Source: Candidatus Hodarchaeota archaeon
GTDB lineage: Archaea; Asgardarchaeota; Lokiarchaeia; Sigyniarchaeales; SOKP01
Length of the DNA stretch: 64,000 nt
Reading direction: 5' to 3'
NCBI GenBank assembly: GCA_048886685.1
Contig: JBHLKM010000015.1
Location: 1 to 64,000 of the forward strand
The stretch's first letter is position 1; each line of letters starts with the position of its first letter. A program made the translations under genes and the position numbers. The notes beneath the pieces were generated by a model. That model did no database searches. It saw only the letters and a program-made list of their open reading frames with translations, and was not told the DNA's origin. This document shows, piece by piece, positions 24,123-28,877 of this stretch.

Positions 24123-25637
24123 TTATAAATAATTATCCATCTTCTTTTGATCATCTTGGTTATCATAAAACTTATTATAGTCTATTTTTGGAATTTTCGG
24201 CAATTTTTTATTTGTCAATCTCCCATACTTAACAGTTATATAATCTTGTACCTTATCAGGATGCACATAATATGGTATTTGTATTAATAAAACATTGTTT
24301 TGTTTACAAAGTTCTAATTTCGTTAAATCATCTTCAATTCTTTGTTCTAAGTCTTTTAGGGTTTGGTCAAAGTGCGCTAGGGCACGATAATGTTGTTCTC
24401 CTTGAGCTTCAAATGATACACCTAGATTTTTATTATACCCATCTAATTCCATTTGATTCCCCCGAGAGTTTATTAGCCAATCTGGTCGTTCTTTTGGAAA
24501 TTTTTCTTGAAACATTTCTTCAAAGAAGCTTCGACAAATTTTTTCAAATTTTCCTTGAGAGCAATTGGGGCACCAATCACCTCTTTTTAAGTTAGATGGT
24601 CTTCTTTCAAATATGTGGTCTTTATTGCATTGAATTTTTAATTTTTGATGTTGATTTTTGTAATCTTCTGGTTTAGAAAGACATCGACCACCTCTTTTTT
24701 CAATAAGTTTTTGAATTTCTTGGAAAGATCCTCTATATTTTTCACTTATAACTTTGTAACTACATTTCTTACACCAACTTCCTTTCTTCAGACTGCTAGC
24801 TCTAATATCAAACTTATGACCTGCCTCGCATTCAATTTTGAATCTTGCCCTTTGATTGAAGAGTTTTTCTTTCGGATCTTCATATATAATTCCGATTAAT
24901 TTACCGCTCTTCTGGATTATAATATTTTGATGTTCCTCAATAGAACCTCTTTGATTATCTACTCGACTTCTTGTTGCACATTTGGGACACCAGTTTTTGC
25001 TATTTATAATTGAATCTAAAGTAGTTTTCCAAGAATGGTTACATTTACCACATTGGTATATTAATTTAGATTTGACACCTTTGAATTCTTCCGGTTTTGA
25101 TAAAATTTTTCCAGGTTCTCCGGTTTTATTCAACCCAGCTAATTCAATAATCTTTTTTGCTTCTTCAAAAGTATATTTTTTCATAAGTTCTTTATATTTT
25201 TCTTCCCCCATCAATTGCTTCATTCTGGTTTTCATAGTCGAAATTGAAGGTGTTTTTTTACTTTCTTCGCGTAAATGATTACGGACTCTCTCCATACTTT
25301 TGTATTGGTTATATTGTTGTATCCAATATCTGACATCCTTTTCAGAATAGTTTTTAAATTTAGAATTAAGAGTGTGTTTTTCATTATCTAGTTTTTTAGT
25401 TATCCCAACTTCCTTTTTTAAGGAATGAATGAAATTTTTTTCATCATTTGGGATGAAATCAATTACGATTTCTGTGTTTTCGTTTTCTAACTCATCTTTA
25501 AGTTCATAGTTTACATAAAAATCATTAACTAAACCTTCTTCTTCATCAAGAGGTTTATAATCAGTTTCATCCAATTCTATTTCAGTTTTTAAAACTTTTT
25601 CTTCATCATTATTATCTATATTATCATATTCTTTCAA
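24123..25637 (-). CDS. Zinc-ribbon repeat protein with C-terminal PD-(D/E)XK endonuclease-like domain
   Basis: Three C..(G/N/D)H.(W/F)...WC..C repeats; ELDGYN...FEAQGEQHY...D..K...C...LIQIPY; ends QKKMDNYL. Confidence 0.85.
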   Translation of the reverse strand: MKEYDNIDNNDEEKVLKTEIELDETDYKPLDEEEGLVNDFYVNYELKDELENENTEIVIDFIPNDEKNFIHSLKKEVGITKKLDNEKHTLNSKFKNYSEKDVRYWIQQYNQYKSMERVRNHLREESKKTPSISTMKTRMKQLMGEEKYKELMKKYTFEEAKKIIELAGLNKTGEPGKILSKPEEFKGVKSKLIYQCGKCNHSWKTTLDSIINSKNWCPKCATRSRVDNQRGSIEEHQNIIIQKSGKLIGIIYEDPKEKLFNQRARFKIECEAGHKFDIRASSLKKGSWCKKCSYKVISEKYRGSFQEIQKLIEKRGGRCLSKPEDYKNQHQKLKIQCNKDHIFERRPSNLKRGDWCPNCSQGKFEKICRSFFEEMFQEKFPKERPDWLINSRGNQMELDGYNKNLGVSFEAQGEQHYRALAHFDQTLKDLEQRIEDDLTKLELCKQNNVLLIQIPYYVHPDKVQDYITVKYGRLTNKKLPKIPKIDYNKFYDNQDDQKKMDNYL

Positions 25638-26943: not shown

Positions 26944-28017
26944 CTAAGATTTATATCGCAAAATACCAACTAATGATCCCAGATTTACCAATTGTTCTCC
27001 GGCAACATTTTCCGTGCTCATAATATATATTTCTCCCCCAGCATTTTCCACTTCAGTTATTATCTCTTCAATTTTTAACTTATGATCTTTGGAAGCTCCT
27101 CGAATCATAATATCGGCAATTAAGAGCTGTTTGATCGCTCCTCTCTCAGAAGCACTAGAAACCTCATCTAATCCTATAACAATAAGATCAGCGTCAAGGG
27201 CGAATTGGGTAATAACACTTTCAACAAGTTCGGTTTCTAATAGAATTTTTACATCTTTTTTTAATTTTGCTAGTTTCTTAGATTTTAATGTTTCAATAAT
27301 TGCACTTTCTGTTCCAGAGCTTGCATAACACGTTTCAATTCTAGTTGAATAGCTAGAATCAAGGATTTTCTTCAAATAGGAAATAAAATGATCTTTAGTA
27401 TTTCCCGGACCACAAATAATTATTAAATTCACATCATGCGATAAAAGATTTTCTCTTACTATCTTGCCTATACTCTCATAAAATTCTAACAATGCTTTAT
27501 TACGATGTGCTTGTTCATATCTTTTTCCTGGAATGTGAGTTTTAATGGTAGCAATCCTTTTATGGCTGAAATTAGTAATGATAGCAATGGTTGCTAAACC
27601 TGTTTCAATTGCTACAAGCAATATAATGAAATTATTTTCAAATTTTGAGCTCTCTTTTATTCGTCTTAGTTCATAATCAGTCCATTTTTCCTTGACGATG
27701 GTAATTTTTTGTAATTTTTCTATATTAAATGTATGATAAGACCCGTAGCTGACAAAATCATCAGGACCTTCAAGAATTTTGCCTTTAACTCTTAGTCGAT
27801 TTGAAAATTCATGAAAAGAAATTGATTCAACCTTCAATTTTAATCTCATCATTTTTCTCTCACCTTTGGATCCTTCTTTCAAGACAACCCTTCTCTGTGT
27901 ACGGGCAGATACCTCATCACCCTCACTTATGATATTATAAAGGGTCCATAAGTCGTTCAGGTTCTCAGGTTTAACTGTAATTTCCTTATGTTTTTGATTG
28001 ATTTCAAGAATTTTCAA
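26944..28017 (-). CDS. pelA: mRNA surveillance protein Pelota
   Basis: PENLNDLWTL, FHEFSNRLRVKG, GSYHT, IPGKR, GPG, VGILRY. Confidence 0.96.
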   Translation of the reverse strand: MKILEINQKHKEITVKPENLNDLWTLYNIISEGDEVSARTQRRVVLKEGSKGERKMMRLKLKVESISFHEFSNRLRVKGKILEGPDDFVSYGSYHTFNIEKLQKITIVKEKWTDYELRRIKESSKFENNFIILLVAIETGLATIAIITNFSHKRIATIKTHIPGKRYEQAHRNKALLEFYESIGKIVRENLLSHDVNLIIICGPGNTKDHFISYLKKILDSSYSTRIETCYASSGTESAIIETLKSKKLAKLKKDVKILLETELVESVITQFALDADLIVIGLDEVSSASERGAIKQLLIADIMIRGASKDHKLKIEEIITEVENAGGEIYIMSTENVAGEQLVNLGSLVGILRYKS

Positions 28018-28158
28018 TGCTCAAAATTAACTCCAAATTGTTACTAATTAAAATTAATCTATAGTCTAAAATAAGCTTATTTTAATTTAAGATTAAGAAT
28101 TTTCAAAAGAAAATAAATAAAAAAAGATAAAAAAATACTTTTATTAAACGAACAAACC

Positions 28159-28314
28159 TTAATCTTTCGCTCCTAAAGCTTCTTTGACTTTTTCAAGTTC
28201 TTCCATGCGTTTCTTCTTTTCTTCTTCCCGTCTTCGGAGTTCCTCTTCATCCACTTTAGTGAGCGTAACACCTTTTTTAATCTCTTCTTGCATATCTTTA
28301 TCAATGGGTGCCAC
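28159..28314 (-). CDS. 51-aa micro-protein with WH2-like motif and charged helix (not in ORF track)
   Basis: GTG start after AAGGGGTTGA; MAPIDKDMQEEIKKGVTLTKVDEEELRRREEEKKKRMEELEKVKEALGAKD*; AT-rich flanks. Confidence 0.75.
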   Translation of the reverse strand: MAPIDKDMQEEIKKGVTLTKVDEEELRRREEEKKKRMEELEKVKEALGAKD

Positions 28315-28421
28315 TTTATATCAACCCCTTTTATTTAAAATTGATGTGAAATAATTAATATTGATATTTACACAAATTATAATAGAATTTATTTATATAT
28401 TTTTCACAAAATATAATATTA

Positions 28422-28877
28422 TCAAGAGTTTATTCTCAATTCCATAAGGAATGCACTTTCCCCAGATTGATAATAATTCTCAATCTTTCTTGGATTTTTT
28501 TTGAAATTAAATTTCTCATATAATCTAATTGCTTGTAAGTTACTCTCTTGAACATTTAAGACTATTTTCTTGATCTCCTTTAATTGTGTTATCTTTTGCA
28601 AAGCATTATTTAAGAGAAGAGCACCATATCCCTTATTTTGAAATCTGGGATTTATGAGAAAATTGATAATATTAATCTGATCTATTTTATCTCTTATAGC
28701 AATTATGAACCCAATCAGCTCATTTTTATTTTTATCATTTACTAATTTTAAAAAGAAAGTATTGCGATCTATTAATTGTTCCATTAATTGCTTCGAAAAA
28801 GCATTTTCCATAAATACCTCCATTTCAAGGGCCATAATTTGATTTAAATCTTTTGAATTAACATTTTTAACTTTCAT
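28422..28877 (-). CDS. RimI/Ard1-like GNAT N-acetyltransferase
   Basis: FQNKGYG, LNVQESN..AI.LYEKFNF, NYYQSGESAFLM. Confidence 0.9.
   Translation of the reverse strand: MKVKNVNSKDLNQIMALEMEVFMENAFSKQLMEQLIDRNTFFLKLVNDKNKNELIGFIIAIRDKIDQINIINFLINPRFQNKGYGALLLNNALQKITQLKEIKKIVLNVQESNLQAIRLYEKFNFKKNPRKIENYYQSGESAFLMELRINS

What the first reader, a model, noticed from the sequence alone, without database searches (positions are those of the whole stretch)
28159..28314. Stand-alone WH2 / beta-thymosin-like micro-protein missed by ORF calling
Seen: a 51-aa gene with a good SD and its own AT-rich flanks. DKDMQEEIKKGVTLTKVD is followed by an E/R/K single-alpha-helix-type tail. Established: the WH2 consensus is an amphipathic helix then G..L(K/R)(K/x)(V/T), e.g. 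N-WASP LLDQIREGAQLKKV; free WH2 peptides (beta-thymosins) sequester G-actin in animals. Inference: an Asgard actin-monomer-binding peptide, a likely overlooked eukaryotic-signature protein. Short motifs can match by chance.
Basis: partly seen in the sequence, partly recalled or inferred. Interest (0 to 1): 0.8.

Follow-up and report, generated by a model that had tools for sequence, protein, structure and literature searches.

The report
Lokiarchaeal WH2/thymosin-like actin micro-protein candidate
A real, strongly conserved and expressed 51-residue protein of Loki-type Asgard archaea looks like the short peptides (WH2, beta-thymosin) that grip actin monomers in eukaryotes. Relatives carry the same unit behind profilin, or ten times in a protein that comes down with the archaeon's own actin, so it is a good but still unproven candidate for a new archaeal actin regulator.

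Summary
The 51-codon ORF at 28159-28314 (-) is a real gene. It is a GC island (39%) between AT-rich spacers (13-17% GC), with a conserved GGTG/GGGG Shine-Dalgarno site and dN/dS of about 0.05-0.07. More than 200 homologues of 49-51 aa exist, and annotators do call them ('hypothetical protein'), so 'missed by ORF calling' fails. Its inferred Lokiarchaeum ossiferum orthologue is detected in all 16 published proteomes.

For the actin reading:
- The helix-G-LxKV pattern persists in divergent orthologues, some reading LKKV, and its Leu is one of the unit's two best-conserved residues.
- The same ~45-aa unit sits behind confirmed Asgard profilin domains.
- It also occurs ten times in a 480-500-aa protein that is enriched as strongly as actin itself in a published Lokiactin co-IP.

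Against it:
- The Pfam WH2 and Thymosin models stay below threshold.
- PDB profile hits to N-WASP, MIM and Spire WH2 are marginal.
- The motif alone occurs about 10 times per genome by chance.
- The micro-protein's own orthologue is not significantly enriched in the co-IP.
- The family was found in only one order.

Verdict: a plausible, unproven WH2/beta-thymosin-like actin binder. This scan reached the same reading earlier on other genomes.

The parts
28159..28314 (-). Coding sequence of the 51-aa micro-protein (GTG start 28312-28314, TAA stop 28159-28161); 6.06 kDa, pI 5.3
   Evidence: Conserved in 204 homologues. dN/dS about 0.05-0.07.
28273..28305 (-). Residues 4-14 (IDKDMQEEIKK): short amphipathic N-terminal helix with I4, M8 and I12 on one face. 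It corresponds to the LLxxI helix of the repeats in relatives.
   Evidence: AF2 helix 6-14. Alignments. Repeats read LLEEI / LMKNI.
28249..28272 (-). Residues 15-22 (GVTLTKVD): the non-helical WH2-like core G-x-x-L-x-K-V. K20 and V21 are invariant among micro-protein orthologues. L18 is at least 90% conserved across all units.
   Evidence: Coil in the AF2 model. The same segments are the low-confidence linkers of the ten-repeat model.
28165..28248 (-). Residues 23-50: long charged helix (EEELRRREEEKKKRMEELEKVKEALGAK). It is as conserved as the motif. R36 is invariant among orthologues and at least 90% conserved across all units. M37, L40, V43 and L47 form a hydrophobic stripe.
   Evidence: AF2 helix 23-50, pLDDT 93-94 in the middle. 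Alignments.
28320..28329 (-). Shine-Dalgarno-like AGGGGTTGAT, 5 nt upstream of the GTG
   Evidence: Sequence. Equivalent AAGGTGTT, GGGATT or AAGTGTT in 18 orthologous loci.
28330..28421 (-). AT-rich spacer (13% GC over 28315-28421) between the GNAT gene and the micro-protein. It holds TATA-like TTTAAATAAA directly upstream of the SD and ATATATAAATA further up. It is presumed to carry the gene's own promoter, but no start site is mapped.
   Evidence: A conserved A/T-rich block before the SD in orthologues. Promoter function is inferred.
28110..28136 (-). Two T7 tracts downstream of the stop, typical of archaeal transcription termination
   Evidence: Sequence. Terminator function is inferred.

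Best explanation
The gene encodes a stand-alone copy of a roughly 45-50-aa actin-binding module that so far is found only in the window's own order of Loki-type Asgard archaea. The module has three pieces: a short amphipathic helix, an extended G-x-x-L-x-K-V/I stretch, and a long conserved charged helix.

Proposed mechanism (inferred, not shown):
- The LxKV stretch runs up the actin surface.
- The long helix continues along the monomer.
- The free 51-aa peptide would therefore buffer or hand over actin monomers.

The same unit serves as an added actin-binding piece behind profilin, and as a ten-fold array in a protein that accompanies Lokiactin. In that array each unit is a helix of about 36 residues (about 5.4 nm, close to the 5.5 nm actin subunit rise) plus one motif.

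Shown here: the gene is real, under strong purifying selection, and its orthologue is translated; the unit is conserved; the profilin fusions exist; the ten-repeat protein co-purifies with Lokiactin.

Inferred: direct contact with actin, the binding site, and monomer sequestration.
For: 1. Reality and constraint. 204 homologues of 49-51 aa. dN/dS about 0.05-0.07 with synonymous sites near saturation, plus a conserved SD and start position.

2. Motif conservation. Distant orthologues keep it: MDGELKKAIEAGASLKKVD, MSDKPKITDEELRKGAENLSKVS, MSDDELRKEIEEHDKSKMAKVS. Across 41 units of all architectures, only the motif's Leu and one Arg of the tail are at least 90% conserved.

3. Unbiased PDB searches. 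Against all 177,635 distinct PDB sequences, profile A1 has N-WASP tandem WH2 bound to actin as its top hit (3m3n_W, E 1.9e-4). MIM WH2 (2d1k_C) and N-WASP (2vcp_D) are also in the top five. The broader unit profile A6 has Spire WH2 second.

4. Pfam WH2 model. Although below cut-off, its best or second-best six-frame hit genome-wide falls on family members in 3 of 5 genomes.

5. Secondary structure. Helix, then an 8-residue coil, then a helix. In the ten-repeat protein the conserved motifs are exactly the low-confidence linkers between 36-residue helices, and pTM is 0.17. That behaviour fits a linear binding motif rather than a folded core.

6. Profilin fusions. P0282, P0285 and P0311 carry 4, 2 and 1 units behind a domain whose profile hits solved Asgard profilins: 5zza E 2.8e-17, then 5yed, 5zzb and 7pbh.

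7. Published co-IP (bioRxiv 10.1101/2025.11.30.690169, Suppl. Table 2). GNAMCCOK_04085 (56.41 kDa; 44 peptides; 70.5% coverage) has log2 ratio 4.53 and adjusted p 0.002. Lokiactin itself has 4.44. I map this entry to the ten-repeat ORF of a 6.0-Mb single-contig relative in two ways. Three monoisotopic masses match exactly: 56.41, actin 42.75 and micro-protein 8.24 kDa. The gene index interpolated between actin and 2DGel1 is 4083 against 4085.

8. Expression. The orthologue GNAMCCOK_02436 is detected in all 16 proteomes.

9. Protein language model. The first hit with a named family is a 53-aa cluster in which 52% of members carry Thymosin PF01290 (score 0.85; a lead only).
Against: - No member reaches the Pfam WH2 cut-off. 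The best is 13-15 bits against 23.1, only 2 of 41 units give any WH2 hit, and the window's own protein gives none. The Pfam Thymosin model finds no member.
- Single-repeat E-values in the PDB search are 10-17. De novo TIM barrels and a synthetic coiled coil score alongside.
- The window's motif reads LTKV, not LKKV. In the profilin fusions the V is often P.
- A relaxed WH2 pattern occurs 10 times by chance in this genome.
- The micro-protein orthologue is only 1.5-fold enriched with Lokiactin (log2 0.57, adjusted p 0.105).
- The unit also occurs in LRR and ribbon-helix-helix proteins with no obvious actin link.
- The neighbours are housekeeping and translation genes: GNAT, Pelota, radical SAM, Elf1, RtcB.
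- The strongly conserved tail (REEEKKKRMEEL, near-invariant Arg) is not a WH2 feature.
- A co-IP cannot tell direct from indirect binding.
Confidence: 0.5

Rival explanations
1. The unit is a helical protein-protein interaction or oligomerisation module, with the long amphipathic charged helix forming a coiled coil. The LxKV stretch is only a conserved helix-breaking turn. The ten-repeat protein is then an actin-associated scaffold that binds actin indirectly or in another way. The free micro-protein pairs with, or competes for, the helices of larger unit-bearing proteins (profilin fusions, RHH and LRR proteins) instead of touching actin.
For: - The tail is at least as conserved as the motif. 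It carries the other residue that is at least 90% conserved (R36) and a hydrophobic stripe.
- The broader unit profile's best PDB hit is a synthetic coiled coil, SYNZIP5.
- Units are fused to dimeric DNA-binding RHH domains and to LRRs.
- The micro-protein orthologue is not significantly enriched in the Lokiactin co-IP, while the ten-repeat protein is.
Against: - The best-conserved position outside the tail is the Leu of the non-helical motif, not a heptad position.
- AF2 gives no packed fold for the ten-repeat protein (pTM 0.17), and its conserved linkers have the lowest confidence.
- WH2 chains keep appearing at the top of the PDB searches.
- Fusion to profilin fits a second actin contact, as described for Leishmania profilin (PMC10907219).
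Confidence: 0.25
2. The micro-protein is linked to translation or ribosome quality control, and its WH2 resemblance is coincidental. It lies between a RimI/Ard1-type acetyltransferase and Pelota.
For: The gene order radical-SAM, GNAT, micro-protein, Pelota, radical-SAM is kept in 19 of the 20 loci fetched from the genus (the twentieth was not examined), and largely in a genus of a second family. The protein is abundant in proteomes, ranking roughly in the top sixth.
Against: - The synteny is lost in other families that keep the gene.
- The spacers of 107 and 141 nt, with AT-rich and T-tract signals, argue for a separate transcription unit.
- The protein is slightly acidic (pI 5.3), unlike ribosomal micro-proteins.
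- There is no hit to any translation-related family.
- This reading does not explain the profilin fusions or the co-IP.
Confidence: 0.07
3. It is a conserved charged single-alpha-helix spacer or chaperone-like 'hero' peptide with no specific partner. Under this reading the motif match is chance.
For: The E3-R3-E3-K3 pattern is typical of single alpha helices. The motif alone is at chance level in the genome. All HMM matches are sub-threshold.
Against: Conservation of 73-100% in sequence, not just composition, with dN/dS about 0.06. Position-specific conservation extends to distant orthologues and fusions. The family has specific actin-linked contexts.
Confidence: 0.1

Closest known systems
WH2 (WASP-homology 2) domain, Pfam PF02205 (N-WASP, WAVE, WIP, MIM, Spire, Cordon-bleu)
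   Same: - A short amphipathic helix (LLxxI in most repeats, M..I here), a small or Gly residue, then L-(K/x)-K-(V/I) at the same spacing.
- The Leu is one of the two best-conserved residues.
- It occurs singly or in tandem arrays.
- N-WASP, MIM and Spire WH2 chains come first, fourth, fifth and second in the PDB profile searches.
   Different: - Below the Pfam cut-off everywhere.
- The window's copy reads LTKV.
- Every unit carries a conserved helix of about 27 residues right after the motif, with a near-invariant Arg, which WH2 domains lack.
- The repeat period is about 45 aa, not about 30.
- Actin binding is untested.
Beta-thymosin and thymosin-repeat proteins (thymosin beta-4, Ciboulot, tetrathymosin; Pfam PF01290)
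   Same: - A free peptide of 40-55 aa, or tandem repeats.
- The layout is N-terminal helix, LKKT-like stretch, C-terminal helix.
- Acidic, with an N-terminus Met-Ala or Met-Ser. Some orthologues begin MSDKP.
- The language-model search puts a Thymosin-bearing cluster as the first named hit.
   Different: - The Pfam Thymosin model finds no member.
- The linker between the N-helix and the Leu is shorter, of WH2 type.
- The C-terminal helix is much longer and starts directly after the motif.
- Sequestering activity is untested.
WH2-like central motif of Asgard two-domain gelsolins (LRRV in Thor, LVDV in Loki, LKDV in L. ossiferum)
   Same: An archaeal L-x-x-V motif that contacts actin in crystal structures with rabbit actin (PMC9433394, PMC7444086). 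This shows that such motifs are used on Asgard-type actin regulators.
   Different: There the motif is a linker after a folded gelsolin domain that supplies the main contact. Here it is the centre of an autonomous unit with no gelsolin domain.
Leishmania/Trypanosoma profilin with a WH2-like insertion
   Same: Profilin and a WH2-like actin-binding element in one polypeptide, both contributing to actin binding (PMC10907219). This parallels the archaeal profilin-unit fusions P0282, P0285 and P0311.
   Different: In trypanosomatids the element is an insertion inside the profilin fold. Here one to four complete units follow the profilin domain.

Membership tests
WH2 domain (Pfam PF02205) | Score over the curated Pfam cut-off (23.1 bits) | tested here: not met
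   The window protein gives no hit at E <= 10. The best family members reach 13-15 bits. Only 2 of 41 units give any WH2 hit, best E 0.022.
WH2 domain (Pfam PF02205) | Sequence pattern: amphipathic helix with 2-3 hydrophobic residues, short Gly-containing linker, L-K/R-K/R-V/T | tested here: met
   The window has M8..I12..G15..L18-T-K-V21. Orthologues read L..AI..G..LKKV, and repeats read LLEEI.....LKKV/I. The first basic residue is not conserved (T, Q, E, S or K).
WH2 domain (Pfam PF02205) | Short helix followed by an extended, non-globular segment | tested here: met
   AF2 gives H6-14 then coil 15-22. The motifs are low-confidence linkers in the ten-repeat model, with pTM 0.17. These are predictions only.
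WH2 domain (Pfam PF02205) | Binds the actin monomer in the cleft between subdomains 1 and 3 | not testable with these tools
   The complex prediction with the genome's own Lokiactin was not folded by the tool. No binding data exist for the micro-protein beyond a non-significant co-IP ratio for its orthologue.
Beta-thymosin (Pfam PF01290) | Score over the curated Pfam cut-off (24.8 bits) | tested here: not met
   No family member is among the hits in 5 genomes at E <= 10. There is no hit in hmmscan.
Beta-thymosin (Pfam PF01290) | Free 40-55-aa peptide or tandem repeats with N-helix, LKKT-like motif and C-terminal helix | tested here: met
   Architecture and predicted secondary structure. This is a resemblance of layout, not of sequence profile.
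Beta-thymosin (Pfam PF01290) | Sequesters G-actin | not testable with these tools
   Needs biochemistry.
Asgard profilin (for the N-terminal domain of the fusion relatives P0282, P0285, P0311) | Sequence-profile match to solved Asgard profilins | tested here: met
   Profile A4 hits 5zza_P at 2.8e-17, 5yed_A at 9.7e-15, 5zzb_A at 6.8e-14 and 7pbh_A (named Profilin) at 1.4e-12. Pfam Profilin gives 19-22 bits on P0282 and P0285, below its cut-off of 25, and nothing on P0311. PMC10907219 names 5ZZB as Lokiarchaeum profilin.

The most novel reading that the evidence does not exclude
The unit is a true archaeal counterpart, homologous or convergent, of the eukaryotic WH2/beta-thymosin actin-monomer-binding module. 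It would define a third class of Asgard actin regulators beside profilins and gelsolins:
- a free sequestering peptide;
- profilin-WH2 hybrids;
- a ten-unit protein whose 36-residue helices match the 5.5-nm actin subunit spacing, and which would nucleate, measure or stabilise Lokiactin filaments much as tandem-WH2 nucleators or nebulin do.
Probability: 0.3. Interest if true: 0.85.

Novelty: new variant of a known kind. Interest (0 to 1): 0.7.

Why it matters
Asgard archaea are the closest known relatives of eukaryotes. According to the 2025 preprint read here, only profilins and gelsolins are discussed as their actin regulators. I found no paper in the searched library that describes a stand-alone WH2- or thymosin-like protein in archaea.

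If this module binds Lokiactin, monomer-buffering peptides and tandem-repeat actin organisers would exist in an archaeon. That would also give a name and a testable hypothesis to one of the strongest undiscussed hits of a published Lokiactin co-IP.

The peptide is only 51 residues, so it can be synthesised and tested directly. One point limits the bearing on eukaryogenesis: the family was found only in one Loki-type order and not in the other Asgard lineages sampled, so a lineage-specific invention is as likely as an ancestral trait.

Tried and rejected
- **Complex prediction.** Complex prediction with the genome's own Lokiactin (alignment A2) and the micro-protein (alignment A3) returned 'NOT FOLDED', because the actin chain looks eukaryotic. 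I did not try to obtain it another way.
- **Foldseek of the AF2 model against PDB.** No match.
- **ESM Atlas search by shape.** Only generic long-helix matches; uninformative.
- **NCBIfam.** Nothing.
- **Single-sequence PDB search.** Only de novo TIM barrels and PARN; no WH2.
- **The search for homologous proteins with the ten-repeat protein.** It returned only the query itself, after only the 8,000 candidates sharing most words were scored. I used genome searches instead.
- **Ten-repeat protein in the window's own family.** Not found in 100 other genomes of that family, nor in the window's own genome, with this query.
- **Profilin-unit fusion in the window's own genome.** Not found. Its extended profilins carry other C-terminal modules.
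- **Actin-related neighbours in the window.** None within about 10 kb either side.
- **Taxon labels.** The labels Thor, Heimdall, Hermod and Hod on some NCBI homologues are not borne out by the search of species representatives, where all matches lie in one order. I therefore dropped 'Asgard-wide'.

Full report
**1. The observation**

The ORF is at 28159-28314 on the minus strand, with 51 codons and a GTG start. It is a 39% GC island between spacers of 13% and 17% GC, in a window of 29.5% GC. AGGGGTTGAT lies 5 nt before the start, and two T7 tracts follow the stop. The neighbours, all on the same strand, are:
- a GNAT acetyltransferase at 28422-28877;
- Pelota at 26944-28017;
- two radical-SAM genes.

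Nothing actin-related lies within about 10 kb. The wider context is Elf1, RtcB, archease and CDP-archaeol synthase.

**2. It is a real gene**

- A search of 5.8 billion proteins gave 204 homologues of 49-51 aa. The 120 listed are 73-100% identical, and NCBI and JGI annotate many of them as 'hypothetical protein'. The gene is therefore not missed by gene callers.
- All 40 related genomes gave a match at E <= 10. Some of these matches are weak and do not lie at the micro-protein locus.
- Against 18 orthologues of the genus, synonymous sites are almost saturated (pS 0.65-0.83 in 17 of them) while pN is 0.08-0.14. Where it can be computed, dN/dS is 0.045-0.075, apart from 0.23 in the closest orthologue.
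- The start codon is ATG, GTG or TTG at the same position, and a GGTG-type SD is conserved upstream.
- The micro-protein is more conserved (76-86% identity) than the flanking GNAT (56-81%), and more than Pelota (66-90%) in most loci.

**3. Where the family occurs**

The genome is an Asgard archaeon of the Loki type. It encodes a 381-aa Lokiactin about 60% identical to eukaryotic actins, and its closest homologues are named Promethearchaeota.

The family profile matched 49/53 and 5/5 genomes of two families of the window's order. It matched 0 of 191 genomes of 26 other families of the phylum at E <= 1e-5. Two further families of the order gave weaker hits. So it was not found outside one order among those searched. 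The Thor, Heimdall and Hod labels on some database entries are doubtful.

**4. The motif**

Distant orthologues at 38-59% identity keep the pattern. Examples are MDGELKKAIEAGASLKKVD, MSDKPKITDEELRKGAENLSKVS and MSDDELRKEIEEHDKSKMAKVS. K20, V21, R36 and K42 are invariant among the micro-proteins.

AF2 predicts helix 6-14, coil 15-22 (GVTLTKVD) and helix 23-50, with pLDDT 87.5.

The motif alone is not evidence. A relaxed WH2 regular expression hits 10 places in this genome's ORFs.

**5. Other architectures**

An exhaustive profile search of 1.84 billion representatives found 72 proteins. The architectures are:
- (a) single units of 47-77 aa;
- (b) proteins of 479-497 aa with about ten tandem units (consensus LLEEIxxGxxLKKIDExELxxYExxKxxRLxxIxxLKxKL); these were found in 8 of 14 genomes of the sister family and in none of 100 other genomes of the window's family;
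- (c) an N-terminal profilin domain followed by 1, 2 or 4 units;
- (d) LRR-unit-RHH and RHH-unit proteins, including a 167-aa protein of this same genome on contig 21.

The profilin domain is confirmed. Its profile hits the solved Asgard profilins 5zza, 5yed, 5zzb and 7pbh at E 2.8e-17 to 1.4e-12.

Across 41 units of all architectures, only the motif's Leu and the tail's Arg are at least 90% conserved.

AF2 on the ten-repeat protein gives helices of about 36 residues joined by 9-11-residue linkers. The linkers are exactly the G..L.K[VI] motifs and have pLDDT below 50. pTM is 0.17, so no packed fold is predicted.

**6. Comparison with WH2 and thymosin**

- The Pfam WH2 model does not reach its cut-off on any member, and it finds nothing on the window's protein. 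Its best or second-best six-frame hit in 3 of 5 genomes nevertheless falls on family members, at 13-14 bits. Only 2 of 41 units give any WH2 hit.
- The Pfam Thymosin model finds no member.
- Against the whole PDB, the family profile's best hit is the N-WASP tandem-WH2 chain of an actin complex (3m3n_W, E 1.9e-4, summed over three repeats that each have E 10 or worse). MIM WH2 and another N-WASP chain are also in the top five. The rest are designed TIM barrels.
- The broader unit profile has Spire WH2 second, after a synthetic coiled coil; none of these hits is significant.
- A protein-language-model search puts a 53-aa cluster, 52% of whose members carry the Thymosin family, as the first named hit at score 0.85, which is only a lead.

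Conclusion: there is a real resemblance of pattern and layout, but family membership is not established.

**7. Experimental data from the literature**

A 2025 preprint on Lokiarchaeum ossiferum (10.1101/2025.11.30.690169) reports proteomes and a Lokiactin co-IP. Its text discusses gelsolins, profilins and an Arf GTPase.

In its Supplementary Table 2, GNAMCCOK_04085 stands out:
- 56.41 kDa, 44 peptides, 70.5% coverage and 366 spectra;
- log2 ratio 4.53 and adjusted p 0.002, against 4.44 for Lokiactin itself.

It is not mentioned in the text.

I map this entry to the ten-repeat ORF of a 6.0-Mb single-contig relative (G053) on two grounds:
- **Masses.** The computed monoisotopic masses equal the table's values for three proteins: ten-repeat 56.41, actin from its second Met 42.75, and the 69-aa reading of the micro-protein ORF 8.24 kDa.
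- **Gene index.** The index interpolated between the actin and 2DGel1 anchors is 4083, against the table's 4085. For the micro-protein, interpolation gives 2427-2437 against 2436.

The micro-protein orthologue (GNAMCCOK_02436) is detected in all 16 proteomes, with mean log2 18.4. In the co-IP it has 5 peptides and 43.5% coverage, but log2 ratio 0.57 and adjusted p 0.105. It is therefore translated but not significantly enriched.

This mapping is my inference.

**8. Interpretation**

The best-supported reading is a WH2/beta-thymosin-like actin-binding module (confidence 0.5). Two independent contexts tie the unit to actin: fusion to profilin, and co-purification of the ten-repeat form. The conserved, non-globular L-x-K-V core behaves like a linear binding motif.

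Direct binding by the 51-aa protein, its binding site, and sequestration are all inferred. The strongly conserved charged tail is not a WH2 feature and keeps a coiled-coil or adaptor reading alive (0.25). Links to translation (0.07) and a partner-less charged helix (0.1) are weaker.

**9. Novelty**

Asgard gelsolins are known to contain a WH2-like linker (PMC7444086, PMC9433394). Leishmania profilin has a WH2-like insertion (PMC10907219). I found no paper in the searched library that describes a stand-alone or tandem WH2- or thymosin-like family in archaea.

Earlier follow-up agents of this scan reached the same reading on orthologues in other genomes. I re-tested their two leads, the profilin fusion and the co-IP, and both hold.

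Noticed in passing
G000 contig 21, 47590-48093 (locus L028:3590-4093, +): The same genome encodes a 167-aa protein with one copy of the unit (VMSEIKETLPSVRNGSYLKKPDEEEIKAREIEKEKRKEEL), followed by a sub-threshold ribbon-helix-helix-like segment (weak Pfam DUF6290 / NikA-like hits) and a charged C-terminal helix. Relatives elsewhere have LRR-unit-RHH (P0296) and RHH-unit (P0305). If the unit binds actin, these could be actin-responsive DNA-binding proteins, as MRTF/RPEL is in animals. That is pure speculation.
   Followed up: partly
Loci L048:1468-2703 (+) and L054:1468-2694 (+), two genomes of the window's genus: Proteins of about 410 aa join an N-terminal Asgard profilin domain to a TrmB-type winged-helix DNA-binding domain. 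Pfam TrmB scores 45.7 and 41 bits, over the cut-off of 25.6. Six frames of 411-443 aa in other genomes of the genus gave similar profilin matches, though one, when inspected, showed no long plus-strand frame; none turned up in the window's genome. A profilin fused to a transcription regulator looks undescribed.
   Followed up: partly
Locus L035:1501-2964 (-), genome G053 (inferred to be L. ossiferum B35): The ten-repeat protein appears to be GNAMCCOK_04085, one of the strongest hits of the published Lokiactin co-IP (log2 4.53). The preprint's text does not discuss it. Other undiscussed top hits are GNAMCCOK_00333 (37.5 kDa, log2 9.2), 02751 (67 kDa, log2 7.7) and 04250 (20.6 kDa, log2 5.1, 92% coverage).
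   Followed up: partly
window 28422-28877 (-) and 28159-28314 (-): A RimI/Ard1-type GNAT acetyltransferase lies directly upstream of the micro-protein in all 19 loci examined in the genus and in a second family. The micro-protein's N-terminus (Met-Ala-Pro; Met-Ser-Asp/Glu in distant orthologues) is a typical substrate of N-terminal acetyltransferases, and thymosin beta-4 is N-acetylated (from general knowledge). This may be coincidence.
   Followed up: no
window 24123-25637 (-): A 504-aa protein with repeated treble-clef zinc-finger / CapR-homology motifs (Pfam CapR 35 bits, DUF4379 28 bits) and an acidic N-terminus. Its function is unknown.
   Followed up: no
protein P0288 (762 aa, JGI metagenome contig): A eukaryote-like protein with FHA, PP1-binding and two SAP domains holds many repeats of the type TPLRNEIKAGTSLRQV / ARNAIKAGVQLKKV. 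The family profile matches seven stretches of it (E 2e-6), and Pfam WH2 scores 18 bits, below the cut-off. This shows that the profile also picks up WH2-like repeats outside archaea.
   Followed up: no
database names of homologues against the genome search: Several NCBI MAG proteins of this family are labelled Thorarchaeota, Heimdallarchaeota, Hermodarchaeota or Hodarchaeota. Among 250 species representatives of the phylum, however, all matches lie in one order. The labels of those MAGs may be unreliable.
   Followed up: partly
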